A stretch of DNA of 64,000 nt from Nitrososphaeraceae archaeon (GTDB taxonomy: Archaea > Thermoproteota > Nitrososphaeria > Nitrososphaerales > Nitrososphaeraceae): assembly GCA_035250685.1 (NCBI GenBank), contig DATFEX010000054.1:3056-67055 (forward strand), written 5' to 3'. This document shows, piece after piece, positions 36,483 to 64,000 of the stretch (position 1 is its first letter; each line of letters starts with the position of its first letter). The notes under the pieces are model-generated. The model did not search any database, had not been told where the DNA came from, and was given only the letters and a program-made list of their open reading frames with translations. The position numbers were made by a program, and so were the translations under genes.

Positions 36483-37799
36483 TTGGGTGGCGAAATCTTG
36501 ATAACCAATTGTGTTATTGCAGTGTCGTTAAGTGCCATCATATTATGCTTTATTCACGGCGACGATTCACTTATTTATGGTGCCCGGCCTAATGTAACGT
36601 CTTCGAATCCAGTCGCAAATGATCCTAATCTAAGAATTGATCTACATTCTAAAGGACTTAAGAGACCGACTTCTATGAGTTTTATCGGCCCAGATGATAT
36701 TCTTGTTACTCAAAAAAATGAGGGTACCGTTGAAAGGATCGTCAATGGTATTAAGATTCCTCAACCACTTCTAACGGTTCCGGTTGCTAGTAAAGATGAA
36801 CGTGGTTTACTAGGTATGGTAATTTCAAAGGATCCAGTTAGTAAAAAATCTTATGTTTTCCTATATTATACTGAAAAAGGTCCAAGTAAGGGAGAAGCAC
36901 TTGGAAATAGAGTTTACAAATATGAGTTAAATAACGATTCGACTAAATTATTGAATCCCCAACTTCTGTTAAGTCTCCCATGGGAACCGGGGCCAGGACA
37001 TAATGGTGGTGTGTTGAAGATTGGTCCGGATAATAATATCTATGTAACGATAGGTGATATTATGAGGACAGGTGAAAACGAAAGCCAATCATACGAAACC
37101 CAAGCGCAGAATGTACAAGATGGTAAAGAGCCCGATGGAAGAGGAGGTATTCTTAGGATAACTCAAGACGGCAAACCTGTAGACAATGGCATCATTGGCA
37201 GTACTTCGCCCCTGAATTATTACTACGCATATGGAATAAAGAACAGCTTTGGAATGGATTTTGATCCGATCACCGGACACCTATGGGATACAGAAAACGG
37301 TCCTGATTATGGTGACGAAGTAAATCTAGTTCTACCAGGTTTTAATAGTGGTTGGAACAAAATAAATGGAATCTGGACAGTTGATTCAACATTCAATAAA
37401 GCAGGAGTCGCGCCCATTGATCCTAAAGACCTAGTAGATTTTAACGGGATCGGGATATACAGTCCGCCTGAATTTACTTGGGATCGTTCAGTTGCTCCAA
37501 CGGCCCTAAAATTCATGAACACGAGCATGCTTGGTTCACAGTACCAAAATGAAATATTAGTGGGAGATATAAAATATGGTAACATCTATCTTTTCACCTT
37601 AACTAAAGATAGAAATTCACTGGCTCTGGAGGGATCTTTGAAAGACAAAATTGCAGACAAGAAAGAAGAAATATCAAATATTGTATTTGCTAGTGGGTTT
37701 GGAGGCATAACCGATCTTGAGATTGGGCCTGACGGTTACCTCTATGTTCTCGTATACGATAAACAAGACGGAAGACTATATCGAATATTGCCGAAATAA
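36483..37799 (+). CDS. PQQ-dependent sugar dehydrogenase (GSDH family)
   Basis: DERGLLG, GHNGG, YYAYGIKNSFG, WDTENGP, ITDLEIGPDGYLY. Confidence 0.9.
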   Translation: MGGEILITNCVIAVSLSAIILCFIHGDDSLIYGARPNVTSSNPVANDPNLRIDLHSKGLKRPTSMSFIGPDDILVTQKNEGTVERIVNGIKIPQPLLTVPVASKDERGLLGMVISKDPVSKKSYVFLYYTEKGPSKGEALGNRVYKYELNNDSTKLLNPQLLLSLPWEPGPGHNGGVLKIGPDNNIYVTIGDIMRTGENESQSYETQAQNVQDGKEPDGRGGILRITQDGKPVDNGIIGSTSPLNYYYAYGIKNSFGMDFDPITGHLWDTENGPDYGDEVNLVLPGFNSGWNKINGIWTVDSTFNKAGVAPIDPKDLVDFNGIGIYSPPEFTWDRSVAPTALKFMNTSMLGSQYQNEILVGDIKYGNIYLFTLTKDRNSLALEGSLKDKIADKKEEISNIVFASGFGGITDLEIGPDGYLYVLVYDKQDGRLYRILPK

Positions 37800-37854
37800 A
37801 GTCCATAATGTGAAGCCTTTAATGGTATTTGGATTGTTTTGCCATAATACTTGT

Positions 37855-39237
37855 CTAGTTCCGTGTTATTCTGTATATTGCCCCTTGATCCGTTCCCCTA
37901 CTTCCTGAGACAACGTATAGATAACCATCAGGCCCTACTTTTATATCAGTCACTATTCCAAAGTTCTCGCCAAATATGATTTCAGAAGTGTCATCTTTTT
38001 TATCAAGTACTAAATCTGCAAGTCCGCCTTTTAGCGACAGTGATTTTCTTTCCTCATCCAGATCAAAATGATAAATTATGCCTTTCTTTACTGAACCTAC
38101 GAAAATATCATTTTCGTACTCGTTACCCAATTTGTCAGAATCAAGAAATACCAGAGCCGTAGGCCCCACTGGCGTATCCCATACAAATTCTGGATCACTA
38201 TACTTTCCTTTACCATCAAAATCTACAAGTCTTATATCTTCATCTCTATCGTCTTCATGAATTTCGGCTCTTCCCCTTGTTTCGTTTAGATTCCAAATTC
38301 CCTGAATCTTTTCCCAACCACTATTAAACCCCGGTTCGACCAGATTTATTTCATCTCCAAATTGGGGTCCGTTTTCCGTATCCCACAAACTTCCAGTAAC
38401 AGGATCTATATCTATACCGAAACTGTTCTTTATTCCGTATGCATAATATAGATTAATCGGATATTCTGTTCCGATTATTCCATTATCAATAGGCTCTCCA
38501 TTCTTATCAATTTTAAGTATTGCTGCCCGACCATCTGGAAGGGTTCCATTCATAATATTCTGTGCCTTGGTATCATAACCCGTTTGGTTTCTGTTAAATT
38601 TAGTTGATTGCAAATCTCCTGTTGTAACATATAGATTCTGATCATCATCCAGTAACAGAATACCTCCATTGTGACTAGGTCCTGGTAATGCGGGTAAAGT
38701 CAAAACTAATATGGGTTCAATGAGTTTATTATTTTCACTATCAAATTTATACCTGTATACAAAATTGCCGCATTCATTTGATTTAATCTTCTCATCAGTT
38801 TTTACCTTGGGGCAATATGTATGGTATAGAAACACATCTCGATTTTCATTGGTTGAATCAGCATCTCCTGATATTGCTATTCCCAATAATCCTCTTTCAT
38901 CCTTGTATGACACATTCAATCGAATAATCTGCGCTGTGATATTTCCATCAACTATTCTGTACACCTTCCCTGTGTTCTTTTCAAGTAGTAAAATATCTTT
39001 ATCATTCAAAAAAGCAATGCTTGTTGGGAAGTCCAATCCACTGACGATAGTTTCTACTTTGATATCGGGATCCGTCATGTAGGGAATATTTTCTTGATTT
39101 GTAATATTATTGGATAGAGTTTGTCTCTGATATTGACCCATTACCATTTCATCAAACGTTATCAAACGGGCAAAAAAGACAATCAAAATAATTAATATAA
39201 TAAATTTCCAATGAATGTTAACGTTATTTATCCCCAT
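37855..39237 (-). CDS. PQQ-dependent sugar dehydrogenase (GSDH family)
   Basis: DERGLLG, SHNGG, YYAYGIKNSFG, WDTENGP, VGPDGYLY. Confidence 0.9.
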   Translation of the reverse strand: MGINNVNIHWKFIILIILIVFFARLITFDEMVMGQYQRQTLSNNITNQENIPYMTDPDIKVETIVSGLDFPTSIAFLNDKDILLLEKNTGKVYRIVDGNITAQIIRLNVSYKDERGLLGIAISGDADSTNENRDVFLYHTYCPKVKTDEKIKSNECGNFVYRYKFDSENNKLIEPILVLTLPALPGPSHNGGILLLDDDQNLYVTTGDLQSTKFNRNQTGYDTKAQNIMNGTLPDGRAAILKIDKNGEPIDNGIIGTEYPINLYYAYGIKNSFGIDIDPVTGSLWDTENGPQFGDEINLVEPGFNSGWEKIQGIWNLNETRGRAEIHEDDRDEDIRLVDFDGKGKYSDPEFVWDTPVGPTALVFLDSDKLGNEYENDIFVGSVKKGIIYHFDLDEERKSLSLKGGLADLVLDKKDDTSEIIFGENFGIVTDIKVGPDGYLYVVSGSRGTDQGAIYRITRN

Positions 39238-43850: not shown

Positions 43851-44834
43851 ATGACAAGTCATTTGTGCTTATTACTAGTATCAATCTTTTTCTTTCCAAT
43901 TTTTCAGGATGTCGCATTTGCACAGACTGATACTAATCCTTTAATAAAAGAATTCCAAGTCCCATCAGGTTCGCATCCACATGACGTGGCCCCTGCGAAG
44001 AATGGGTCGATTTGGTACACTGCACAGAGATTAGGTGCATTAGGTATACTAGATCCAATCTCTGGCAGGACACATCATATTGATTTAGGGGAAGGCTCAG
44101 CACCGCATGGAGTTATTGTTGGCCCAGACGAAGCTCCATGGATTACTGACGGCGGACTTAACGCTATTGTAAGAGTTGATCCTATAACTAGTAACGTTAC
44201 TGTCTATTCATTGCCTGAAAATACTGGAAATGCAAACCTAAACACTGCTAGCTTTGATCACATGGGAATTCTGTGGTTTACTGGCCAATCGGGAATTTAT
44301 GGAAAACTAGATCCAAATACTGGAAAAATGGAAGTTTTCGAAGCCCCAAGAGGTAATGGTCCATATGGTATTTCCACTACCCCCGACGGACATGTATACT
44401 TTGTGTCGTTGGCGGGTAGCTACCTTGCTCAAATAAATTTGGAGACTGGGAACCTAACTATCATCGACCCACCAACAGCCGATCAAGGGGCTAGACGTGT
44501 CTGGTCTGACTCTACAGGTAATCTCTGGATAACCGAATGGAATGCAGGCAATTTGGGTAAGTATGATCCTGTTACCAACAAATGGAAAGAATGGAAATTG
44601 CCAGGTCAGAACCCTCAACCTTATGCAGTGTTTGTTGATGATAAAGATATAGTTTGGATCAGTGATTTTGGTTCAAATGCCATGATAAGATTCGACCCAT
44701 CGATTGAAGAATTTCAATCGTTCCCACTGCCTAGTCAAGATGCGAAAGTACGCCAATTGTTAGGGAGAACTGGAGAAATTGTTGGTGCAGAGTCTGCCAC
44801 TGACAAGATAGTGATAATTCACACCACAAAATAA
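43851..44834 (+). CDS. Virginiamycin B lyase (Vgb)-like beta-propeller with signal peptide
   Basis: SHPHDVAP...IWYT, SAPHGVIVGPD..PWIT, GPYGISTTPDG repeats. Confidence 0.8.
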   Translation: MTSHLCLLLVSIFFFPIFQDVAFAQTDTNPLIKEFQVPSGSHPHDVAPAKNGSIWYTAQRLGALGILDPISGRTHHIDLGEGSAPHGVIVGPDEAPWITDGGLNAIVRVDPITSNVTVYSLPENTGNANLNTASFDHMGILWFTGQSGIYGKLDPNTGKMEVFEAPRGNGPYGISTTPDGHVYFVSLAGSYLAQINLETGNLTIIDPPTADQGARRVWSDSTGNLWITEWNAGNLGKYDPVTNKWKEWKLPGQNPQPYAVFVDDKDIVWISDFGSNAMIRFDPSIEEFQSFPLPSQDAKVRQLLGRTGEIVGAESATDKIVIIHTTK

Positions 44835-49401: not shown

Positions 49402-52400
49402 TTAGTGGGATTCGTTGTAATTAAGATTCATTCTTCTGTGAAACAGGATGGCAACTATTGTTGCCATACTAATGACAATAATGATGGCCAAATTAACAAC
49501 ATTGGTCAGTATACTACTTATCGGTACACCCATCCCGCGTCTGTCTATATCATCTGAAATGTGGCCAGGAAGTTCTAACTGTAGTTTTGTCTGATTTCTT
49601 TGTCCCTCAATGTTCAATGAGTCTATATAAGTTAGATAACCGGTCTTGGTACCCTCCCTGAATGTATCTTTATAATCCTCCACAAAATCAAACTTTACAT
49701 CCACCTTACCATTTACATTAAGCGGAATATAATCATCTATTTCTTGCCCGTAAAAATTAGTTTTGTCAAATAGCGCATTGCCATTTACCTTTAATTCCGG
49801 ATTTTTCAACAACATTAGAATATTTCTTGATATATTAGATTTGGGACTAATACTATAGAGGTCAATTTTTGATTCATTTCCTATTTGTATTATGTTATTT
49901 GTCAAATTACTATTGTTAGTAAGGATAGTCAAATGACTATCTGTTCCTAGAAGCTTAATTGTCATGTTAAATTCGTTGGGTAATGATACACCCAGGTAGT
50001 TACCTTTGGAGTTAATCGATGGTAACGTTATTTTACCTGTTGTGTTGATTAGATGTTCGTATTGACCAAAGGTCTTAATATCAAGTAGAGACAAGTTTTC
50101 ATGCTGTATTTTGAGGTTTCCGTGCTTGTCTGAAACTGATATGTTCTTAATAGAGGACACTGAAGAGTCCAGCGAACTTTTATCAAAGTAAACTGATGAA
50201 CTATTCAGCGTTATCTTTCCTACTACCGTCAAATCTCCAATGAAACGTCTAATGGGTTCCGATCCGCTCTCGTTACCTCTTGGTTTATCTTTCACATGTC
50301 CAATTTCAAATATGTCAGAAAAGTCTACAAGAGATGGAAAATTGTGTTTGGGGTTGGCATATATCGCGTTAAAATATCCAAACGCATTAATGTATGTAAT
50401 TCTTCCATTATCTGATACATTCTTCTCAATTACAAACGGAGCAATGGCCTCATTGTCATTGTTTTTATAGGATGCGATTACTTTAATATCAGACGAAGGT
50501 TTCACTCTGGAATCTTTTATTTTTCCGGTAACATCCAAAACAAATCCGTTTTTATCATCGCTTGTAATCCGTTTGAATTGTCGAGTTTCATTAACCATTG
50601 GTTCGCTCAAGAATAGTTTATCAAATTTCCCCTCAAATTTATCACTTGGGTTGATTATGAACAGCTTCCCGCCAGACCTTGCGTAGTTTAAAAGGTTATT
50701 GAACATTTCATCGCTCAGATCGTTCATATTATTTGGTAAAATAACTGCCTCGTTCGAGAAAATAGAGTAATCATTTTCAAGGTAAGAACTGTATTCCATC
50801 TCAGACATTGCAAGCGATGTAAGTGTGTAATAGTAGCTGTAATCCTTGACGTTATAATTTTCCTGCTTAATTTTTCCTATCCCTAGATATTCGAATTGTA
50901 CAACACTGTTCTCCGAATTTATGCCTACGCTTGTAACTTGCGGATCATTTTCTTGCAGGTCTCTGGGGACATTAATTCTTAGAATACTATCTACGTATAC
51001 ACTAATTGAGTTATTATGTGTTAGAACATTCAATACTTGCCACATACCAAGATTATTTCTTACTTGGGAATTTTGGCCCAGTACTAGATCTCTTTTGCCC
51101 TTTCCAATCTCTTCTCTTAGTTGTATACCCTTATCTGATAGTGAAACAAAGAAAGTACGGTTCCCATCTTTCCATTTTAGACCTGAAATTCCCTTTCCGA
51201 TTTTGGTTTCATCAATTGTCCTCAGATTCAATTCTATGTAATTGATACCTTGCTCATTGAAATTATTAGACCAAATTGTCTTACCGCCATTCTTTTTCAG
51301 ACCATTTAAGATAACTTTTTCCGCTTGATTCGATTTTTGGATTTGGATGAATTCTGCTGTATCCTTTTCATAATTAAAAGTTTGGTTGTTAACCTCCAAC
51401 TTTTTCTTACTCTCAATTATTGGTGACAATGAGTTATCAATTTCATTTAATATTCCGAGCTTATGTTCCGAGTTTGTGGACGGTCCGTTCAACGAAGGAA
51501 CCTTGAGTACGACGTAACTATCGTTTTTTAATATTTGCTCGAAATTGGTAATTGCAAATCGGACAGGATAAGACAGTGTGAATTGATCGGTGCTATTAGT
51601 TGGTATCATCATATATCCAGTATTGCTTAATTCTATTAAGCGATAAAATGAATCTAAATTGGAAGAGTTCAATATGTATTGTGTTTGTATGGATTTTCTC
51701 AACGGCAGTCCTGAAAATGCATGAAGTTTGGAAATGAGATCGCCTTCTCGAAAATTGTATTCATTTGGAAAGGTTGCTACATTATAGTTATTGGAACCAC
51801 CTTGTATTTCACTACGCATCGAATCCAGCAATGCCATCTCATTTGGTGAAGGAAAATTCCTACGTCCCAAGGCATGAGAATAGTCCTGAGACTGTATTAC
51901 CAATGCGTTATAGCCAATATACATCAATGTTGAGATACTTGCAGCTATGACTATGGCTGATATTATAACGCCATTTAGAATTAATTTCTTATTTCTTACG
52001 AAATCTATTAGTTTAAAAATCATTAATGATGCAAAGCCTATCATGCCCACCATTACATATTTGCTGAATCTGTGTTCGTTGTAGTACGGACCGGCAAAAA
52101 GAGCAATTATGGCAATTATTCCAAAAATGAATACCTCTCGCTCATACCTTTTAAATAAATATGAAAGTACGAAAGCGGTACCAAATAGACCAACGATCCC
52201 CATTCTCATTGGGTACAAATACCACGGAGTATTATAGCCCTGAGTATGAACATCAATATAATTTGCAGGAAGTTGAATCCAAACAAGAAAGCAAAGTGCA
52301 AATAAATATACTATGCTAGAAACAAATAGTATCTTTGGTATATATCCGTCTTTTGATATTATTTTAGTCAGCTTTGTGTTTGGTTGCAACTTTCTAATCG

Positions 52401-54045
52401 AAATACGTGCAAAAAATTTATTCCAGTTCTGCCTGAGAAGGTACAAAGCAAGCGTTCCTATTATAAAGATCGCACTTATCTCAATAACTGATAGTCCAAG
52501 TATACTATTTGATGTAAAATAGTTTACAGGAAGTAAACTGTCTATACTATATACTAATGCCAAAGCAATAAGAAGGGCAAAATAAACAATTGTTTTTTTT
52601 CTCATGTTGTAGGCAAGCACCAAAAGAGATGAAGCTACAACAAAAATGTAAAATTCATCATGAAACAGAATTCCTACAATAGCGATCAGAGAAAGTATTA
52701 ATAAATGTCTGACTTTACTAGGAAGTTCAATCTTGATTAAGGATAGCAAAATAAAACCCGCAGGCAGGGACACAAGTGTAAGACTAGTGTTAAAGTCCGG
52801 AAATGCTGCAATCATGAAATTTGCAGATAGCCTTATGTCACTCTCTCTTATTTTTTCTTGAACAAAATATGATATGGCGTTGGCCTGCGAGTCAATTGAT
52901 TCTAACTCCGTAAGATAAAGCACATACATCCAGCCAAATCCAGCAGCTAGTACAAAAAGAGAGGACGCAAATAGGGAAGCCATTTTCAAGTTGGAAGGAA
53001 GCCATGTTCGACAGAAATAATAAAACGCAAATACTGCTGTCATATTTAGTAACGCTATAGAGACATACGCATTTACCAATGGAACTCCAGAAATAGAAGT
53101 TAAACCTGCAAGTAAGGATGAGAGTAACGGTGTATAATTTTGATCTCCATTGGTCGTTATGGATTCTTTGAAATTTCCATGCATGAAGAGTAAGGCTCTA
53201 TTCTGATGGTACCACTGATCGCCTATTGTTACTCCGTCATAGAGATAATAAGTTGATGTAATCATTAAGGCTGAAAGACTTGCAAATACGATAAGTACGG
53301 GCAAATTCCGTTTTAGATCCGACAATAAATTAGTACCTATTACAGTAATCATATGATGAGGTATACTGCGAAGGTTAAAATCAGTCGCAAAAGTAATTTT
53401 GTGGATTTGATGGTAAGCTGCGTATACTATCAGTATGACAAGATATATCGCAAGAAGAATAAACTTATCTTCATATATGTTACTATCGAAAAGTATTGAT
53501 GAGAAGTAAACTGTCAAGCCTGTAATCAACATACTGATAAGATATCCTAACAAAATTTTCAAGAGTCCATTCGTTCTATAATTTTTAGTCACAACAGATA
53601 TTGCGGCATAGCCGGGGAAGATAAAACAAAGTAAAATGCCAACAGAAGCTGCCAGCAAATCGGATAGATTGACATAATTCCAACTTGTGAATACGACATC
53701 TAATCGCGGTATTGAAAAAAATGCACACACAGCGAGCAAAACCGAATATATAAACGAAAATGTGGTTTTTGAGATCCAATTTTGAATAATTCTTTGACTA
53801 TCTGATGAAGAATCCTTCACAGTAGTATCAAAATTGTCACTGTAGTGATAGACACGAGTATCTTCCCGTTGCAATGAATAATATCTTGTCAACCAGAAAC
53901 AGAGTATTGCCATAGAAATGCAAATTGGTAAAACAAATTTCATTTCTACTAGCAAGTATGAAAGTATAAAATAGACGCTAATTCCAGCTAACAGAGGAGC
54001 AGAGATTAGAGAAAAGATAATCTTTGTATCTACTGCTAGATTCAA
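49402..54045 (-). CDS. 1547-aa polytopic membrane protein, GT-C-like N-terminal half plus large extracellular domain and C-terminal TM
   Basis: Many TM segments in the first ~720 aa with GDQWYH loop motif; N-x-S/T-rich soluble region; final hydrophobic helix followed by HRR. Confidence 0.7.
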   Translation of the reverse strand: MNLAVDTKIIFSLISAPLLAGISVYFILSYLLVEMKFVLPICISMAILCFWLTRYYSLQREDTRVYHYSDNFDTTVKDSSSDSQRIIQNWISKTTFSFIYSVLLAVCAFFSIPRLDVVFTSWNYVNLSDLLAASVGILLCFIFPGYAAISVVTKNYRTNGLLKILLGYLISMLITGLTVYFSSILFDSNIYEDKFILLAIYLVILIVYAAYHQIHKITFATDFNLRSIPHHMITVIGTNLLSDLKRNLPVLIVFASLSALMITSTYYLYDGVTIGDQWYHQNRALLFMHGNFKESITTNGDQNYTPLLSSLLAGLTSISGVPLVNAYVSIALLNMTAVFAFYYFCRTWLPSNLKMASLFASSLFVLAAGFGWMYVLYLTELESIDSQANAISYFVQEKIRESDIRLSANFMIAAFPDFNTSLTLVSLPAGFILLSLIKIELPSKVRHLLILSLIAIVGILFHDEFYIFVVASSLLVLAYNMRKKTIVYFALLIALALVYSIDSLLPVNYFTSNSILGLSVIEISAIFIIGTLALYLLRQNWNKFFARISIRKLQPNTKLTKIISKDGYIPKILFVSSIVYLFALCFLVWIQLPANYIDVHTQGYNTPWYLYPMRMGIVGLFGTAFVLSYLFKRYEREVFIFGIIAIIALFAGPYYNEHRFSKYVMVGMIGFASLMIFKLIDFVRNKKLILNGVIISAIVIAASISTLMYIGYNALVIQSQDYSHALGRRNFPSPNEMALLDSMRSEIQGGSNNYNVATFPNEYNFREGDLISKLHAFSGLPLRKSIQTQYILNSSNLDSFYRLIELSNTGYMMIPTNSTDQFTLSYPVRFAITNFEQILKNDSYVVLKVPSLNGPSTNSEHKLGILNEIDNSLSPIIESKKKLEVNNQTFNYEKDTAEFIQIQKSNQAEKVILNGLKKNGGKTIWSNNFNEQGINYIELNLRTIDETKIGKGISGLKWKDGNRTFFVSLSDKGIQLREEIGKGKRDLVLGQNSQVRNNLGMWQVLNVLTHNNSISVYVDSILRINVPRDLQENDPQVTSVGINSENSVVQFEYLGIGKIKQENYNVKDYSYYYTLTSLAMSEMEYSSYLENDYSIFSNEAVILPNNMNDLSDEMFNNLLNYARSGGKLFIINPSDKFEGKFDKLFLSEPMVNETRQFKRITSDDKNGFVLDVTGKIKDSRVKPSSDIKVIASYKNNDNEAIAPFVIEKNVSDNGRITYINAFGYFNAIYANPKHNFPSLVDFSDIFEIGHVKDKPRGNESGSEPIRRFIGDLTVVGKITLNSSSVYFDKSSLDSSVSSIKNISVSDKHGNLKIQHENLSLLDIKTFGQYEHLINTTGKITLPSINSKGNYLGVSLPNEFNMTIKLLGTDSHLTILTNNSNLTNNIIQIGNESKIDLYSISPKSNISRNILMLLKNPELKVNGNALFDKTNFYGQEIDDYIPLNVNGKVDVKFDFVEDYKDTFREGTKTGYLTYIDSLNIEGQRNQTKLQLELPGHISDDIDRRGMGVPISSILTNVVNLAIIIVISMATIVAILFHRRMNLNYNESH

Positions 54046-54280: not shown

Positions 54281-55867
54281 ATGTATAGATTATTAAGTCT
54301 GTACTTAAATTTATTCATGATTCTGATGCCAATTAAAAAAGATATATCCTCATTTGGATTTCTATCCTTAACGTTATTGATTTGTGGGGTATCTGTGGTC
54401 ACTGGTATGCTATTTACTATAACAGGAATTTGGAATGACAACACTTTTGTCACTGCTGCCTCAACTACCGAGAAAGATATGTTACCTGATATACTGGACG
54501 AAGGAATAGAAGCAACAGTAGTCGTAGAGGGATTAGAGCGTCCTACAAGTATGGCCTTCTTGGGTCCAAATGATTTTATAGTTCTAGAGAAAAAATCTGG
54601 TATAGTGAAGAGGATCGTTAATGGAAATATCTTGGAACCACCATTGCTGGATGTAAAAGTTGCCAACGAAAAGGAAAGAGGTTTACTAGGTGTTGCTATA
54701 TCAAAAATGGTTACTCAAACTGTGGGTAATTCCCAGAGTGACAACAAAGAGCCTTCGAACCCTCACTCCACTCGTGTTTTTTTGTACTACACAGAGTCGT
54801 CCGGAGAAGACGGAATTGACGATTGTCCTACGATAAATTATTGCGCAGAGGGTACAGAACCGAAAGGCAACAGATTATACAGATATGATCTGGAACAAGA
54901 CAGGTTAGTGAATCCAAAACTATTGTTGGATTTACCCGCAAATCCTGGAGCAGATCATTTAGGAGGTTCTTTAATTATAGGACCTGATAGCAATCTTTAT
55001 CTTACCACAGGTGATGGTCATAGCTGCAGCTACAATAGCTGCGACGAGGGGTTCGAGGAAACTGTTCTGAATTCTCAATCCGCAAATGTAGATGATGGAC
55101 ATGTTCCCGACGGAAGAGGAGGAATATTGAGAGTTACCCAAGACGGTGAACAAGTAACAGAAGGTAATAAGCGATGGGTCCTTGGTGATGTTGGTATTCT
55201 AGACAAATACTATGCCTACGGGATACGCAACAGCTACGGAATAGATTTTGATTACCTGAGCGGAAAATTGTGGGATACAGAAAATGGTCCTTCATTTGGT
55301 GATGAAATAAATCTGGTAGAACCTGGGTTCAACAGTGGATGGCTAAAAATCCAAGGAATATGGCCAATCTACAATCACACTCTACTATATCCACAAGGAC
55401 TTACTCCTCCTTATAGGGGTTACTTTGAAAGTGGCGATAGCAAGTTTATTAATAGCAGTAAAGTTGATCTGGAAGATTTAGTGGATTTTCAAGGTCGAGG
55501 AAAATACAGCGATCCTGAATTCATATGGAATATGACCGTAGGCCTTACCGCACTTAAATTTTTTGATTCTGATAAATTAGGAGAAGAATACAAAGATGAT
55601 TTATTCGTCGCAGACTCTAATCATGGTAATTTATATCATTTCGACCTGAGTGTCGATAGAACCACACTGGAATTTGGTAACAGAATAACCGATAGGATAG
55701 TGCATTCCTTAGATAAGGAGGAACTCGGCTCCATTCTCTTTGGCCACGGATTTGATTCAATAACCGACCTAGAGGTTGGACCTGATGGGTACCTATACGT
55801 GGTATCACATAAACAGGGAAAAATATTCAAGATAGTTCCTGATGATGTTAAAGAAAGTCCAACATAG
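54281..55867 (+). CDS. PQQ-dependent sugar dehydrogenase (GSDH family)
   Basis: KERGLLG, DHLGG, YYAYGIRNSYG, WDTENGP, ITDLEVGPDGYLY. Confidence 0.9.
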   Translation: MYRLLSLYLNLFMILMPIKKDISSFGFLSLTLLICGVSVVTGMLFTITGIWNDNTFVTAASTTEKDMLPDILDEGIEATVVVEGLERPTSMAFLGPNDFIVLEKKSGIVKRIVNGNILEPPLLDVKVANEKERGLLGVAISKMVTQTVGNSQSDNKEPSNPHSTRVFLYYTESSGEDGIDDCPTINYCAEGTEPKGNRLYRYDLEQDRLVNPKLLLDLPANPGADHLGGSLIIGPDSNLYLTTGDGHSCSYNSCDEGFEETVLNSQSANVDDGHVPDGRGGILRVTQDGEQVTEGNKRWVLGDVGILDKYYAYGIRNSYGIDFDYLSGKLWDTENGPSFGDEINLVEPGFNSGWLKIQGIWPIYNHTLLYPQGLTPPYRGYFESGDSKFINSSKVDLEDLVDFQGRGKYSDPEFIWNMTVGLTALKFFDSDKLGEEYKDDLFVADSNHGNLYHFDLSVDRTTLEFGNRITDRIVHSLDKEELGSILFGHGFDSITDLEVGPDGYLYVVSHKQGKIFKIVPDDVKESPT

Positions 55868-60737: not shown

Positions 60738-61943
60738 ATGGAATTAAAACACGAGCAAAACTCGAGTGGGTCCAAGCCTGTGAAAATTATAGTTTGCATA
60801 CCTGCATATAATGAGGAAAAAAACATAGGCAATGTAGTGCGTAAGGCACGAAATCATGCAGATGAAGTCATCGTTTGTAATGATGGTTCTACTGATAACA
60901 CTGCCAAAATTGCACAAGATCAAGGAGCATCAGTAATCAATCATCCTAAAAACTACGGATATGGAAAATCTATTCGTACCCTTTTTGAAAAAGCACTTGA
61001 AAGAAAGGCCGATATTATAGTAACCATTGACTCAGATGGACAGCATGACCCTGCGCAGATTCCGGACATCATCGAACCTATACTCAAAAATGGATTCGAC
61101 ATCGTCATAGGTTCCAGATTCATAGGAAACAAGCCTGCAGTTAGAATTCCATTTTACCGTACTCTGGGAATTAAGACCATAACAAAGTTCACAAAACATG
61201 CTTCATATAAGAATCTGACGGACGCACAAAGCGGTTTTAGAGGGTATAGCAGACATGCCCTACAAATGATGAACCTCCTGGAAGATGGCATGCAGATATC
61301 TACAGAGATACTGTTAAGAGCCGGTTCTAATAGATTATCGATAACTGAAGTTCCAGTAACGATAAGTTATGATGTCGAAAACTCTTCAACTCATAATTTT
61401 TTATCACATGGCATCAGGGTACTATTTAGTGTAATTCAATTCATTTCCTTACGACATCCTTTACTTTTTTACGGAGTGCCTGGTGTTACCTTAATTGCCG
61501 TATCCGGATATTTCGCCTACAACGCCTTGGAATTGTTCTCTCAAACGAGATTTATTTCTATAAATATGATATTGTTATCAATAACAGCTACAATTATCGG
61601 AATTATTTTGCTTACTACTGGGAGTATATTGTTCACTATTTCCTTGATGTTGACAAAAGGGACGAGGGTCACTTTGGCATCTCGGATAATAGAGTTCGTT
61701 TCATTGCGCCATCCACTAGTATTTTATGGACTGCCTGGAATCACTTTTCTGGCTGTATCTGGATATTTTGCGTACAATGCGTTAGAGTACTTTGCTTCCT
61801 ATAGATATGTAACTGTACTGCTTACGAACAGATTATTTGTTATGGTCGCTGCCGCAATTATTGGCATAGTTCTGCTAACAACTGGAAGCTTATTCTATTC
61901 TATCGCTGCAATGTTGAAAGGCAAAATAAGATTCGACCTATAA
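60738..61943 (+). CDS. GT2 glycosyltransferase (Dol-P-sugar synthase/GtrB-like) with duplicated C-terminal TM module
   Basis: IPAYNEE, NDGSTD, IDSDGQHDP, GSRF, DAQSGFR; SLRHPL.FYG.PG....VSGYFAYNALE occurs twice, 85 aa apart. Confidence 0.9.
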   Translation: MELKHEQNSSGSKPVKIIVCIPAYNEEKNIGNVVRKARNHADEVIVCNDGSTDNTAKIAQDQGASVINHPKNYGYGKSIRTLFEKALERKADIIVTIDSDGQHDPAQIPDIIEPILKNGFDIVIGSRFIGNKPAVRIPFYRTLGIKTITKFTKHASYKNLTDAQSGFRGYSRHALQMMNLLEDGMQISTEILLRAGSNRLSITEVPVTISYDVENSSTHNFLSHGIRVLFSVIQFISLRHPLLFYGVPGVTLIAVSGYFAYNALELFSQTRFISINMILLSITATIIGIILLTTGSILFTISLMLTKGTRVTLASRIIEFVSLRHPLVFYGLPGITFLAVSGYFAYNALEYFASYRYVTVLLTNRLFVMVAAAIIGIVLLTTGSLFYSIAAMLKGKIRFDL

Positions 61944-62254
61944 AAATTAACTGCAAATACAAACGACATTTATTAACAACCATAACTTGATACCGACAGC
62001 AAAGTATTCTTATTGATAGTTTTATGAAGGCAAATTGAAATTACCAAATAATAGTATTGATGAGAAGTCTCTATTATGCAAGCCCATCAGGATGGCAGCG
62101 TTCTGCTGTTGTTACATAATATTCTTCTATAAAATTATTATCATATTTCGATCCTGTGATTTTCAAATTAGACGTACGGTAATCAAATGAGTGTCTCGTT
62201 CGTCATGATGAAACAATATATTGTAACGCTTTGAGGGAAGAATGTAGAGTTAAG

Positions 62255-62265
62255 TTTAAATAAAT
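62255..62265 (+). promoter_or_regulatory. Archaeal TATA box of peptide gene copy 1
   Basis: TTTAAATAAAT starts 32 nt before the ATG at 62287. Confidence 0.65.
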
Positions 62266-62286
62266 CAGGAGTTAATCACGGTTGAT

Positions 62287-62382
62287 ATGAATAAGAAAAG
62301 CTTGGATCTAAGCATTGTCGACCTAACCACGAAAAAGTCAAAGCGTGAAATAGGCGGCGGAAGTTCTAGTAGCGGCGATTAA
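62287..62382 (+). CDS. 31-aa peptide, copy 1 (candidate RiPP precursor): MNKKSLDLSIVDLTTKKSKREIGGGSSSSGD
   Basis: Manual translation; duplicated at 62534; own TATA box and terminator-like end. Confidence 0.7.
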   Translation: MNKKSLDLSIVDLTTKKSKREIGGGSSSSGD

Positions 62383-62408
62383 GTCGCTACTTTTTTTTGA
62401 TTTTTTTT
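62369..62408 (+). terminator. Hairpin plus oligo-T terminator-like element, copy 1
   Basis: gtagcggc-gattaa-gtcgctac (8 bp with one G-U pair) followed by T8-ga-T8. Confidence 0.7.
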
Positions 62409-62501
62409 GAAATTCACATAATCTGGTTTTTAGTTATGGCTTGAACATGATAATGCTTTAACTTATAGCATTACCATGTGATAGAAAAATCTAAAGTTAG
62501 G

Positions 62502-62512
62502 TTTATATAAAT
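62502..62512 (+). promoter_or_regulatory. Archaeal TATA box of peptide gene copy 2
   Basis: TTTATATAAAT starts 32 nt before the ATG at 62534. Confidence 0.65.
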
Positions 62513-62533
62513 TGGTATTTAATCAGAACTGAA

Positions 62534-62629
62534 ATGAATAAGAAAAGCTTGGATCTAAGCATTGTCGACCTAACCACGAAAAAGTCAAAGCGTGAAATAG
62601 GCGGCGGAAGTTCTAGTAGCGGCAATTAG
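62534..62629 (+). CDS. 31-aa peptide, copy 2 (candidate RiPP precursor): MNKKSLDLSIVDLTTKKSKREIGGGSSSSGN
   Basis: Identical DNA to copy 1 except GAT>AAT (D>N) and TAA>TAG. Confidence 0.7.
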   Translation: MNKKSLDLSIVDLTTKKSKREIGGGSSSSGN

Positions 62630-62654
62630 GTCGCTACTTTTTTTTATTTTTTTT
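62616..62654 (+). terminator. Hairpin plus oligo-T terminator-like element, copy 2
   Basis: gtagcggc-aattag-gtcgctac followed by T8-a-T8. Confidence 0.7.
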
Positions 62655-62861
62655 CGAAATTCACATAAGTTGGTTTTTAGTTTTGGTTTATCGTGAACAT
62701 GATACTTTAACCTTATAACATTACACTCGCATTATGACCGTTAGAAATCTCGATGCCTGCCTGATTTTATTGCATGAGAAATTGCCCTTGCACGCACTGC
62801 AAATTATTATTCCAGTATTAATTTATACAATTCATACTTGTTACTTTTTTGGTAAATATGT

Positions 62862-64000
62862 CTAATAGTATTTCTCTATTGTACTCCTCTTGCACATGCT
62901 ATCTTCTATGAGTGAAGTAATAGTGAACAAATTATCAACTGCTTCGTGGCTAAATTGTGAAGATTGATTCAATATCTGTTGCACTTTATCATGTGACAAG
63001 ACATTTGTTATTTCTTTACAGTCCTGTAATTGAGTTCTTATGCACTGAATTATTTTTGAATCAGTTTCATAGCTGTATGCTCTCTTGTCATAAATTTTTT
63101 TTATGAATCTTCTTAACTTTGGATACTTAAAAGAAAGGAACAAAACGTATTGCAGTATTTTGAACTTCTTTGAGCTGATTGAGCATCCCCAATTGGAAAT
63201 CTTAATTTCTGCGCTTGCTGGAGATAGAGCAATAAAGAATTCTCTGTATAAAGCTAATTTTTCTTTGCTTTTATCTGAACAATTAAAAATATAATCGAAA
63301 AAAGGGACAGAGTAAAACGGAGCAACAGTCCAAAAGTATAGTCTATTTACATCTTCTATTTCAAAACTAAATTTCACGTTATTCTCAAAAAAGAGGAAAT
63401 GTGCCAACTTAAAACTGGGATTCCGTTCAGGATATGATCTCAGAATATTTCTTATTTCCTGTATCAATTCGGGTTTACTTACTTTGGTAACGTCCGAGAT
63501 GATATTGAGCGGAAAACGACCTTTTACATGTATGATCCCCCTAGCACAACTTTCAATGTCCTGGACATCGAACAAAAGATTGGTGAAAGATACGTCGCCA
63601 CCATGACCCGTAAAAAAATTGACAGGAGATGATCCGTACTTTGACTTTAGTACTTCCAGAAATCTGGGCAAGAAACTATGTGCGAGATAAATTAGACCAC
63701 TCTTGGTTCTTAGTAGAGTAAGTAAGTTTTGAGCCGTTGGCAACATAGTATGATAATTCTCCCACTCAACATTCAATTCGTGTGCCAATTTTTCAGCAAT
63801 CTCCGACTCCGATGAATTACCTACAACTGGAGTCCAGTTAGGTTCAGGTGACGTTACAGCTGAGTAGGAGATTTTATTTTCATTCAATCCTGCCGCGACT
63901 GCCCTTGAATCAAGGCCGCCACTTAGAGAGATAACATTCTTTGAGTCTGGGTCTGCTCTATTCTTACACGCTTCAAGAAATAATTTAACTAGTTCTTGTG
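62862..64000 (-). CDS. Asparagine-synthetase-like ATP pyrophosphatase (AsnB C-terminal domain family), 5' end outside the window
   Basis: Frame open to the window edge: ...KNVISLSGGLDSRAVAAGL (PP-loop), FFTGHGGD, VAPFYS. Confidence 0.85.
   Translation of the reverse strand, partial: QELVKLFLEACKNRADPDSKNVISLSGGLDSRAVAAGLNENKISYSAVTSPEPNWTPVVGNSSESEIAEKLAHELNVEWENYHTMLPTAQNLLTLLRTKSGLIYLAHSFLPRFLEVLKSKYGSSPVNFFTGHGGDVSFTNLLFDVQDIESCARGIIHVKGRFPLNIISDVTKVSKPELIQEIRNILRSYPERNPSFKLAHFLFFENNVKFSFEIEDVNRLYFWTVAPFYSVPFFDYIFNCSDKSKEKLALYREFFIALSPASAEIKISNWGCSISSKKFKILQYVLFLSFKYPKLRRFIKKIYDKRAYSYETDSKIIQCIRTQLQDCKEITNVLSHDKVQQILNQSSQFSHEAVDNLFTITSLIEDSMCKRSTIEKYY

What the first reader, a model, noticed from the sequence alone, without database searches (positions are those of the whole stretch)
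62255..62725. Two tandem, separately promoted 31-aa peptide genes: candidate archaeal RiPP precursors
Seen in sequence: two 96-nt ORFs (62287-62382, 62534-62629) encode MNKKSLDLSIVDLTTKKSKREIGGGSSSSG(D/N). They are below the ORF-track cutoff. Each has a TATA-like box starting exactly 32 nt before the ATG (consistent with leaderless archaeal transcripts) and ends in a hairpin plus oligo-T. The only two nucleotide differences are D>N in the last codon and TAA>TAG, so the stop is kept, while the flanks have diverged with indels. Inference: the layout (basic, hydrophobic-patterned leader with LDLSI, a GG motif, a short Gly/Ser-rich core, multiple near-identical copies varying at the core end) is typical of RiPP precursor genes. 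It does not match any RiPP class I can name.
Basis: partly seen in the sequence, partly recalled or inferred. Interest (0 to 1): 0.85.

Follow-up and report, generated by a model that had tools for sequence, protein, structure and literature searches.

The report
Azole-peptide precursor genes in Nitrososphaeraceae
Two tiny duplicated genes in a soil ammonia-oxidising archaeon most likely encode precursors of a thiazole/oxazole-type modified peptide (microcin B17-like), and their unannotated family usually sits next to an unusual asparagine-synthetase-like enzyme, which points to an undescribed archaeal natural product.

Summary
Two 96-nt ORFs differ at 2 of 96 positions and lie in a 247-nt tandem duplication whose flanks have diverged (122/165 identical columns).

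They are real protein-coding genes. About 20 distinct homologues occur in soil Nitrososphaeraceae MAGs and metagenomes. They keep the frame (pN/pS 0.14, in-frame indels), a BRE/TATA box 32±1 nt before the ATG in most copies, and an oligo-T tail. No RNA structure is conserved.

The leader, M..[FLM]xLxIVDLTTKKSKREIGGG, is conserved. It is always followed by 2-4 consecutive Ser/Cys/Thr and a variable Gly-rich end.

The RiPP class can be named: TOMM/linear azole peptide. Homologues lie beside a SagB dehydrogenase and a fused E1-like/YcaO cyclodehydratase (L009, L030) or about 9 kb from them (L038). A near-identical MAG of the window's species carries both enzymes, and metagenomes holding the window contain related genes at matching depth. 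By synteny they should lie just past the window's right end.

It is adjacent in 11 of 16 distinct loci and contiguous with SagB-YcaO in others. The family has Pro in place of the glutaminase cysteine and keeps the PP-loop, so it probably activates the peptide's C-terminal carboxylate.

No chemistry or firm expression data exist.

The parts
62217..62725 (+). Tandem duplication (two units of about 247 nt), each a complete mini-gene cassette: promoter, 31-codon ORF, terminator
   Evidence: also present in MAG contig L011 and in metagenome contigs
62248..62262 (+). BRE-like AGTTAAG plus TATA box TTTAAATA of copy 1. The TATA box starts 32 nt before the ATG, which predicts a leaderless mRNA
   Evidence: the exact 17-nt GTTAAGTTTAAATAAAT motif recurs in 7 of the 36 loci then held and close variants precede most other cassettes; TSS position is inferred from the usual archaeal TATA-to-TSS spacing
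62287..62382 (+). Precursor peptide gene 1: MNKKSLDLSIVDLTTKKSKREIGGG|SSSSGD (leader|core split is inferred)
62368..62408 (+). Lineage-specific 9-bp hairpin (62368-62391), then T8 (62391-62398) and T8 (62401-62408): terminator of copy 1
   Evidence: the hairpin is not conserved in homologues, the oligo-T is
62495..62509 (+). BRE-like AGTTAGG plus TATA box TTTATATA of copy 2, also starting 32 nt before the ATG
62534..62629 (+). Precursor peptide gene 2: MNKKSLDLSIVDLTTKKSKREIGGG|SSSSGN
62615..62654 (+). Hairpin (62615-62638), then T8 (62638-62645) and T8 (62647-62654): terminator of copy 2
62862..64000 (-). 3' two-thirds of an asparagine-synthetase-like gene, convergent with the peptide genes. 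The frame stays open to the window end and the PP-loop SLSGGLDS is present. Full-length relatives are about 620 aa and start MPG[ILV]S, so the Cys1 nucleophile is replaced by Pro
60738..61943 (+). GT2 glycosyltransferase with C-terminal membrane segments. It is the conserved upstream neighbour of the peptide cassette. Its role in the peptide pathway is unknown

Best explanation
The two ORFs are paralogous precursor genes of a thiazole/oxazole-modified (TOMM / linear azole-containing) peptide of soil Nitrososphaeraceae.

Shown:
- Each cassette has its own BRE/TATA promoter placed so that transcription should start at or within about 2 nt of the ATG, and it ends at oligo-T.
- Residues 1-25 are conserved across the family (...[FLM]xLxIVDLTTKKSKREIGGG). 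After GGG there are always 2-4 consecutive Ser/Cys/Thr, then a short variable Gly-rich end.

Inferred mechanism:
- The conserved part acts as a leader bound by the E1-like / leader-binding N-terminal half of a fused cyclodehydratase.
- The YcaO half converts the Ser/Cys/Thr run to azolines, and a SagB-type flavoprotein oxidises them to azoles. The product would be a small contiguous poly-azole peptide resembling a minimal microcin B17.
- In the window's lineage the maturase genes are not next to the precursors. By synteny with L038 and L037 they lie about 9-12 kb beyond the AsnB-like gene, just past the right end of the window.
- The convergent asparagine-synthetase-like enzyme cannot hydrolyse glutamine (Pro replaces Cys1) but keeps the ATP pyrophosphatase loop. 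It most likely adenylates the only carboxylate shared by all cores, the C-terminal one, to cap it (amide) or close it (lactam).
For: Coding: pN/pS 0.14, variable columns by codon position 5/5/16, and in-frame length changes among 17 distinct sequences. No conserved RNA structure and no Rfam hit.

Promoter and terminator: conserved across the cassettes.

Physical links to TOMM enzymes:
- L009: the peptide lies about 430 nt from SagB (TIGR03605, 156.6 bits, cutoff 78.4), followed by the leader-binding cyclodehydratase component (TIGR03882, 55 bits, cutoff 36.9).
- L030: SagB, fused E1-like/YcaO (TIGR03604 296.7 bits, cutoff 219), two tandem peptides, then convergent AsnB-like.
- L038: YcaO about 9 kb from AsnB-peptide on one contig.
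- P0197 contigs: SagB, YcaO and AsnB-like are contiguous and co-directional, followed by a 512-nt uncalled gap and GT2.

Same genome: both GTDB MAGs that carry the peptide also carry SagB and the fused YcaO (L012, L013). Metagenomes X1/X2 hold the window at 100% identity at depths 20-22x and 7-9x. They also hold a SagB+YcaO contig at 22.3x and 10.2x. X3/X4 hold L013 at 99% or more.

Orphan maturases: nine SagB-YcaO loci have no recognisable cis precursor, so they need precursors encoded elsewhere.

The YcaO proteins end in the PxPxP-type motif (...APHPLP).

AsnB-like: adjacent in 11 of 16 distinct peptide loci over 43-100% AsnB identity. 29 of 30 sampled relatives begin MPG[ILV]S (two of them after a short N-terminal extension in the gene call) and all keep SGGxDS.

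Precedents: AS-like enzymes modify RiPP C-termini (TsrC, ScdTA, PesC; PMC13060819), and precursors can be encoded away from the cyclodehydratase (heterocycloanthracin; PMC4603692).
Against: - No maturase gene lies inside the 64-kb window. Its position beyond the window end is inferred from synteny and depth, not read.
- Only two loci have the peptide directly beside SagB/YcaO.
- There is no chemical evidence for azoles.
- Expression evidence is weak: sparse soil metatranscriptome contigs, highest over the peptide region but unstranded and possibly containing DNA.
- The AsnB-like/GT2/GT2 block also exists without a peptide (L001-L006), so the AsnB-like enzyme might serve the surrounding glycan genes.
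- No leader protease or exporter was identified.
- The leader/core boundary is a guess.
Confidence: 0.7

Rival explanations
1. The peptide is the substrate of the AsnB-like enzyme alone, giving a lasso-like or head-to-tail macrolactam or a C-terminally amidated peptide. The SagB/YcaO genes would serve another, unidentified substrate.
For: AsnB-like is the most frequent neighbour (11 of 16 loci), whereas SagB/YcaO is adjacent in only 2. From the first Gly of GGG to the C-terminus the cores are 7-12 residues long, most often 9. This resembles lasso ring sizes, which I recall from the literature. The glutaminase nucleophile is lost, as in lactam-forming family members.
Against: The core invariably contains a Ser/Cys/Thr run after Gly, the hallmark of a YcaO substrate. 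Nine SagB-YcaO loci have no other candidate precursor. In L030 and the P0197 contigs all the genes form one cluster. No lasso B protease or RRE is present, Asp/Glu is not conserved, and there is no tail. The score against the lasso cyclase model is 51 bits against a cutoff of 525.
Confidence: 0.1
2. The ORFs encode an unmodified small protein (regulatory or structural micro-protein). The link to RiPP enzymes reflects inheritance of a conserved gene neighbourhood, not function.
For: Most loci come from one family of archaea with strongly conserved synteny (GT2, peptide, AsnB, GSDH and so on), so adjacency could be phylogenetic inertia. There is no direct modification evidence.
Against: A leader under strong constraint next to a hypervariable Gly/Ser/Cys end, recurrent tandem duplication with C-terminal variation (window, L017/L024, L026, L030), and cassettes next to SagB or YcaO in two different arrangements (L009, L030) are all typical of RiPP precursors and hard to explain for a 31-aa folded protein.
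Confidence: 0.1
3. Glycocin-like peptide: the Ser/Cys run is O-/S-glycosylated by the neighbouring GT2 enzymes.
For: A GT2 gene is the conserved upstream neighbour. Ser and Cys interchange in the core, and S/O-glycosyltransferases tolerate that (from my own knowledge).
Against: The GT2/GT2 pair with membrane segments is conserved without a peptide in L001-L006 and sits among flippase, PMT_2 and GT4 genes typical of envelope glycan synthesis. In L030 the peptides have no GT2 neighbour.
Confidence: 0.05
4. A non-coding RNA or repeated regulatory element that happens to contain an open frame.
For: Very short; a strong local hairpin in the window copies.
Against: Substitutions favour third codon positions, pN/pS is 0.14, and indels are in frame. 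The consensus structure energy is -1 kcal/mol with 3 pairs. No Rfam family matches.
Confidence: 0.02

Closest known systems
Microcin B17 system (McbA precursor; McbB/C/D synthetase), the archetypal linear azole-containing peptide
   Same: A leader of about 25 residues is followed by a Gly/Ser/Cys-rich core in which Ser/Cys follow Gly. The enzyme set is an E1-like component, a YcaO cyclodehydratase and a SagB/McbC-type flavin dehydrogenase.
   Different: Here the precursor is 25-35 aa with a core of only 4-9 residues after GGG. The C and D components are fused into one protein of about 820 aa. The precursors are stand-alone leaderless mini-genes, often kilobases from the maturases. An AS-like enzyme is part of the neighbourhood. 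The host is an archaeon. No immunity or export genes were seen.
Heterocycloanthracin (Bacillus cereus group TOMM)
   Same: A fused cyclodehydratase plus dehydrogenase, with precursor genes often encoded outside the local context of the cyclodehydratase (PMC4603692).
   Different: The precursor family is different (TIGR03601-type, long Cys-rich repeats). That system has a separate F-protein for leader binding and no AS-like partner.
Haloazolisin and thermoacidophisin (predicted archaeal TOMM families, Cox et al. 2015, PMC4603692)
   Same: Archaeal TOMM clusters. Haloazolisin precursors have Ser-rich cores and a fused cyclodehydratase. None has been characterised chemically.
   Different: Those are in Halobacteria and Sulfolobus. 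The haloazolisin cyclodehydratase is N-terminally truncated with a barely recognisable C domain, whereas here the leader-binding model TIGR03882 scores above its cutoff. Nitrososphaerota are not mentioned in that survey.
AS-like RiPP tailoring enzymes acting on the peptide C-terminus: TsrC (thiostrepton), ScdTA, PesC (nitrilobacillin) (PMC13060819)
   Same: A PF00733-type enzyme in a RiPP locus. The C-terminal alpha-carboxylate is the only carboxylate common to all cores here. TsrC acts in thiostrepton maturation; thiostrepton-type thiopeptide clusters also use a fused YcaO cyclodehydratase (PMC4603692).
   Different: For PesC the paper proposes glutamine-derived ammonia. The family here has Pro at the Cys1 position, only remote similarity to any AS (best PDB E-value 2e-6), and a distinctive Cys-rich C-terminal region. 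Its activity is untested.
Lasso peptide cyclases (McjC-type AS-like macrolactam synthetases)
   Same: An AS-like fold with an inactive glutaminase domain. NF033535 is the second-best NCBIfam hit for two of the three relatives tested and third for the L030 protein. The core length from GGG to the end is most often 9 residues, similar to lasso rings.
   Different: The score is 45-51 bits against a cutoff of 525. There is no B protease or RRE, no conserved Asp/Glu acceptor and no tail to thread.

Membership tests
TOMM / linear azole-containing peptide (LAP) precursor | Short precursor with a conserved N-terminal leader and a C-terminal core rich in heterocyclisable Cys/Ser/Thr (often after Gly) | tested here: met
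   About 20 distinct peptides share the leader ...IVDLTTKKSKREIGGG followed by 2-4 consecutive S/C/T (SSSS, CCS, SST, CCT, SCS, CT, SSS)
TOMM / linear azole-containing peptide (LAP) precursor | YcaO cyclodehydratase with an E1-like / leader-binding partner encoded with the precursor family | tested here: met
   Fused protein: TIGR03604 280-297 bits (cutoff 219), TIGR03882 53-64 bits (cutoff 36.9), PF02624 228 bits. It is adjacent to peptides in L030 and lies about 9 kb away on the same contig in L038. In L009 the leader-binding half (TIGR03882) sits beyond SagB next to the peptide; the contig ends before the YcaO half
TOMM / linear azole-containing peptide (LAP) precursor | The same maturases are present in the genome that carries this window | tested here: inconclusive
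   Not in the 64-kb window. Present on another contig of the 99.3%-identical MAG JAICFW01 (L013). Present at matching depth, but only about 83% nucleotide identity to L013, in metagenomes that hold the window at 100% identity. Physical linkage was not read
TOMM / linear azole-containing peptide (LAP) precursor | SagB-type FMN dehydrogenase (azoline to azole) | tested here: met
   TIGR03605 156.6 bits (cutoff 78.4) next to the peptide in L009. Also in L012, L013, L028 and L030
TOMM / linear azole-containing peptide (LAP) precursor | Azol(in)e heterocycles in the mature product; leader-dependent processing | not testable with these tools
   Needs expression and mass spectrometry
Lasso peptide | AS-like cyclase of the lasso family | tested here: not met
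   NF033535 45-51 bits against a cutoff of 525; NF033561 15-30 bits against 300
Lasso peptide | B protein (transglutaminase-like leader protease) and PqqD-like RRE in the cluster | tested here: not met
   None among the neighbours in the window or in the loci with gene tables
Lasso peptide | Core with Asp/Glu at position 7-9 followed by a C-terminal tail | tested here: not met
   Asp is present in only 2 of about 20 cores (window copy 1, L026) and Glu in one (P0021). No tail
Glutamine-dependent asparagine synthetase / amidotransferase (AsnB, TIGR01536; EPS-locus TIGR03108) | N-terminal Cys1 nucleophile and a score above the family cutoff | tested here: not met
   29 of 30 relatives begin MPG[ILV]S (two after a short extension in the gene call), so Pro replaces Cys. 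TIGR01536 55-77 bits against 267; TIGR03108 36-58 bits against 817. The N-terminus of the window's own copy lies outside the window
Asn_synthase superfamily (PF00733) adenylating enzyme | PP-loop SGGxDS ATP-pyrophosphatase motif | tested here: met
   SLSGGLDS in the window fragment. Invariant in alignments A3 and A6 and in 30 relatives
Double-glycine-leader bacteriocin | C39 peptidase-ABC exporter nearby and the LSxxELxxIxGG consensus | tested here: not met
   No C39 or ABC gene among the 18 large ORFs searched between about 29.6 kb and the right end of the window or in the related loci. Only the I-x-G-G end of the consensus fits

The most novel reading that the evidence does not exclude
The glutaminase-dead AS-like enzyme is a dedicated tailoring or cyclising enzyme of this TOMM family. 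It would adenylate the C-terminal alpha-carboxylate of the azole peptide. It would then close it onto the new N-terminus, giving a head-to-tail poly-azole macrolactam of about 7-12 residues made by a lasso-cyclase-like enzyme. Alternatively it would cap the carboxylate using free ammonia, the growth substrate of these archaea. Either outcome would define a new RiPP subclass and the first natural product pathway described for ammonia-oxidising archaea.
Probability: 0.3. Interest if true: 0.8.

Novelty: new variant of a known kind. Interest (0 to 1): 0.62.

Why it matters
Ammonia-oxidising Nitrososphaeraceae are among the most abundant soil archaea, yet my literature searches found no natural product from them. 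No paper in the library combines Nitrososphaera, YcaO and RiPP. The 2015 TOMM survey and a 2025 archaeal RiPP study do not mention this phylum.

This finding supplies the missing substrates for a widespread set of orphan SagB/YcaO clusters: about 90 SagB clusters at 48% identity or more. It predicts small, synthesisable products: Gly3, then 2-4 azoles, then Gly-X. It also identifies a family of at least 222 AS-like proteins with a dead glutaminase site, a candidate for new peptide C-terminal chemistry.

The genes are about 100 nt long, are rarely called by gene finders and carry no annotation where they are. This also shows how such precursors are missed.

Tried and rejected
An exact-sequence look-up found nothing. 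The representative-library phmmer search and degenerate DNA patterns worked instead.

2. Lasso peptide reading: rejected on four features (see the membership test).

3. Non-coding RNA reading: rejected.

4. An AlphaFold model of the AS-like protein from an 18-sequence alignment was poor (mean pLDDT 51). I therefore did not run a fold search. A profile search of PDB sequences gave only remote asparagine synthetase hits (E = 2e-6).

5. I looked for a cis precursor near nine SagB-YcaO loci, by tblastn in all and by a Gly/Ser/Cys-tail small-ORF scan in most. None was found. A 41-aa ORF between SagB and YcaO in L034-L036 has no Cys/Ser-rich core.

6. Metatranscriptome contigs (X25-X28) are too sparse and unstranded to prove transcription.

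7. L008 shows two frameshifts in the peptide ORF. Its AsnB gene is also fragmented, and so is the AsnB gene in the sister assembly L007. I therefore attribute the frameshifts to assembly indels, not to a pseudogene.

8. PQQ- or mycofactocin-type cofactor precursors were considered because of the many GSDH paralogues. They were rejected because the cores lack the conserved Glu/Tyr or Val-Tyr ends of those precursors.
Full report
**Observation.**
The window is 36% GC. At 62287-62382 and 62534-62629 on the + strand it has two 96-nt ORFs encoding MNKKSLDLSIVDLTTKKSKREIGGGSSSSG(D/N). They belong to a two-copy direct repeat with a 247-nt period (62217-62442 and 62464-62689, 86% identical). Within the ORF 94 of 96 positions are identical. 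In the aligned flanks 122 columns agree and 43 differ, including indels (Fisher p = 1e-7).

Each ORF is preceded by AGTTA(A/G)G + TTTA(A/T)ATA, starting exactly 32 nt before the ATG. Each is followed by a 9-bp hairpin and two T8 runs. Independent metagenome assemblies and a MAG contig carry the same duplication: L011, Nitrososphaeraceae archaeon bin_OS2.4, is 99.3% identical over 1304 nt.

**Are they genes?**
A phmmer search of 1.8 billion representative proteins found two relatives, P0020 and P0021. Degenerate DNA patterns then found two GTDB genomes and 14 metagenome contigs. Loci reached through neighbouring genes added more: L007, L008, L030, L037 and L038. This gives about 20 distinct peptides.

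- Over the 17 codons from two residues before the (V/I/E)DLT motif through GGG in 17 distinct sequences, variable columns by codon position are 5/5/16.
- Mean pS is 0.54 against pN 0.08, so pN/pS is 0.14. Length differences are whole codons.
- An RNAalifold consensus of 14 transcripts has only 3 pairs and -1 kcal/mol. Rfam finds nothing.
- The window's terminal hairpin is absent from, for example, L015.

The promoter motif (G)TTAAGTTTAAATAAAT recurs at 32±1 nt from the start codon in most cassettes (L010, L019/L020/L027 and L037/L038 deviate by a few nucleotides). It is otherwise rare in the window. An oligo-T run follows every copy whose downstream sequence is held. Given the usual archaeal spacing between TATA box and transcription start (established knowledge, not measured here), the mRNAs should be leaderless and about 110-125 nt long.

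**Anatomy of the peptide family.**
The N-terminal part is conserved: M-N-(x)-K-K-x-[FLM]-[DN]-L-[ST]-I-[VI]-D-L-T-T-[KR]-K-[SAP]-[KR]-[RK]-E-I-G-G-G. A more distant form in L030 reads MNKKQNIDLTIEDLHASAKNKSVVAGGG.

After GGG there are always 2-4 consecutive Ser/Cys/Thr, followed by a variable short Gly-rich end. The ends seen are SSSSGD, SSSSGN, CCSGGSGGG, SSSSQSS, SSSSG, SSTGN, SSTGGK/R, CCTGGK, SCSAGT, CTGGG, SSSSGGGSS, SSSSGDSK, SSSSGT, SSSG, SSSGSG, SSSGN and CCSGGGKE.

Tandem pairs that differ only at the C-terminal end recur in the window, L017/L024, L026 and L030.

**Which enzymes?**
- The gene convergent with the peptides (62862 to the window end, - strand) is an asparagine-synthetase-like protein. 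Its frame runs off the window, and it contains the PP-loop SLSGGLDS.
- In L009 a peptide 86% identical over the leader lies about 430 nt from a SagB family peptide dehydrogenase (156.6 bits, cutoff 78.4). That gene is followed by a TOMM leader-peptide-binding / SagC-type component.
- Both MAGs with the peptide carry SagB plus a protein of about 820 aa that fuses an E1-like domain to YcaO, on other contigs. The fusion scores TIGR03604 280 bits (cutoff 219), TIGR03882 64 bits (cutoff 36.9) and PF02624 228 bits, and ends ...APHPLP.
- In L030 (Nitrososphaeraceae SMAG_U6754) everything is together: SagB, YcaO fusion, peptide, peptide, then the convergent AsnB-like gene.
- In two JGI contigs SagB, the YcaO fusion and AsnB-like are contiguous and co-directional. 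A 512-nt uncalled gap and the GT2 pair follow. No DNA was available for these contigs.
- In L038 the YcaO gene is about 9 kb from AsnB-peptide on one contig. A block of BNR-like, PMT_2, GT4, GSDH, flippase-like and GSDH genes separates them. L037 continues with GT2, GT2 and Kelch, exactly as in the window. By this synteny the window's maturases should lie about 9-12 kb past its right end.
- Metagenomes X1/X2 hold the window at 100% identity (depths 20.5-22.6x and 6.9-9.1x). They also contain a contig with SagB and YcaO at 22.3x and 10.2x, although it is only about 83% identical to L013. X3/X4 hold L013 at 99% or more, at the depth of their window-like contigs.
- Nine SagB-YcaO loci (L012, L013, L028, L031-L036) have no recognisable precursor nearby.

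The simplest reading is that the orphan maturases and the orphan peptides belong together. This is the arrangement known for heterocycloanthracin (PMC4603692).

**The AsnB-like partner.**
Counting distinct loci with enough flank, the AsnB-like gene is adjacent in 11 of 16. It is adjacent in window/L011, L007, L008, L010, L014, L016, L017/L024, L023, L026, L030 and L037/L038. It is not adjacent in L009, L015, L019 group, L021 and the P0021 contig. AsnB identity among these loci ranges from 43% to 100%.

A profile search shows a family of at least 222 proteins of about 620-645 aa, almost all from soil metagenomes.
- 29 of 30 sampled members begin MPG[ILV]S where AsnB has MCGI, two of them after a short N-terminal extension in the gene call. 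The Ntn nucleophile is therefore replaced by Pro.
- All keep SGGxDS.
- Scores against AsnB, lasso-cyclase and EPS-amidotransferase models are far below their cutoffs. The best PDB sequence match is E = 2e-6.

The enzyme can therefore adenylate a carboxylate but cannot draw ammonia from glutamine. The only carboxylate common to all cores is the C-terminal one. AS-like enzymes that modify RiPP C-termini are known: TsrC, ScdTA and PesC (PMC13060819). From established knowledge, family members without the glutaminase cysteine (lasso cyclases, beta-lactam synthetase) form intramolecular amides.

I therefore infer C-terminal capping or ring closure. This step is inference. The same AsnB-like/GT2/GT2 block exists without a peptide in L001-L006, so a role in the surrounding glycan genes cannot be excluded.

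**Comparison with known systems.**
The system works like microcin B17 and other linear azole peptides and meets the sequence-testable membership criteria for TOMMs. It fails those for lasso peptides, glutamine-dependent AsnB and double-glycine bacteriocins.

Differences from described TOMMs:
- very short precursors;
- stand-alone leaderless cassettes that duplicate and relocate. An example is the indel polymorphism between L009 and L012, whose SagB proteins are 96% identical;
- distance from the maturases;
- the AS-like partner;
- the host phylum.

Literature searches found archaeal TOMM predictions only for haloarchaea and Sulfolobus, and nothing for Nitrososphaerota.

**Limits.**
- There is no chemical or translational evidence.
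- Soil metatranscriptome contigs cover the peptide region at the highest depth within 10 kb for X25 and X26. The single hit of run X28 falls on copy 2. The data are sparse, unstranded and may include DNA.
- The maturase position beyond the window is inferred.
- The leader/core boundary, the protease, export and biological activity are unknown.

**Verdict.**
This is a real, conserved and essentially unannotated family of TOMM-type precursor genes in ammonia-oxidising archaea. The class is nameable. The AS-like step is the potentially new chemistry.

Noticed in passing
L009 2242-2888 versus L012 (reverse complement of about 1054-1232): Two contigs whose SagB proteins are 96% identical differ by replacement of the SagB-orf261 intergenic region. 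L009 has 647 nt containing the peptide cassette; L012 has 182 nt without it. The cassette therefore behaves as a presence/absence unit.
   Followed up: partly
L018 1106-1204 (compare L016 1931-2029): The peptide cassette is identical to L016's, but the sequence diverges right after the terminator. It overlaps an ORF with a bacterial-type lipoprotein signal (MKSVLLTLIIIALLTSCSN). This is either a chimeric metagenome contig or a relocated cassette.
   Followed up: no
AsnB-like family (alignments A3/A6; window 62862-64000, - strand): The C-terminal region of about 250 residues, unlike canonical AsnB, has several invariant cysteines and an invariant NSNWGC motif in alignments A3 and A6; it relaxes in more distant relatives. 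This could be a metal site or a peptide-binding site. One 37,950-nt contig length is reported for three paralogues (P0238, P0243, P0246), so they may share a contig.
   Followed up: no
window 49402-54045 (-): A 1547-aa protein has no Pfam or NCBIfam hit. It is conserved in position (1545 aa) in the related loci L001, L002 and L004.
   Followed up: no
window 36483-39237 and 54281-55867; also L001, L007, L026, L031, L037: Glucose/sorbosone dehydrogenase (GSDH, PQQ-type beta-propeller) paralogues are unusually dense. They are interleaved with BNR, Kelch, PMT_2, GT4, GT2 and flippase genes. The peptide, AsnB-like and TOMM genes sit inside this variable cell-envelope region.
   Followed up: partly
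window 43851-44834 (+): A 327-aa protein matches the virginiamycin B lyase family (PF24684, 132.8 bits, cutoff 50).
   Followed up: no
L007 and L008 (ENA ERZ250395xx assemblies): Many genes, including AsnB-like and the L008 peptide ORF, are split by frameshifts. This is most likely indel error in these assemblies, so they should not be used to call pseudogenes.
   Followed up: partly
L013 versus X1/X2 contigs: The peptide locus is 99-100% identical between the window, MAG bin_OS2.4 and metagenomes X1/X2. The SagB/YcaO region of X1/X2 is only about 83% identical to the MAG's L013. Either the maturase locus is hypervariable or L013 was binned from a related population.
   Followed up: partly
P0021 contig (JGI 3300041965, no DNA) and L031 14221-15282: A GNAT (Acetyltransf_9) protein of about 341-353 aa is convergent with a peptide gene in one contig and with the fused YcaO gene in another. 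It could be a further tailoring enzyme.
   Followed up: no
window 62503-62625 (-): A 40-aa antisense ORF overlaps peptide gene 2. It is a by-product of the codon composition; copy 1 shows no antisense ORF of 25 aa or more.
   Followed up: yes
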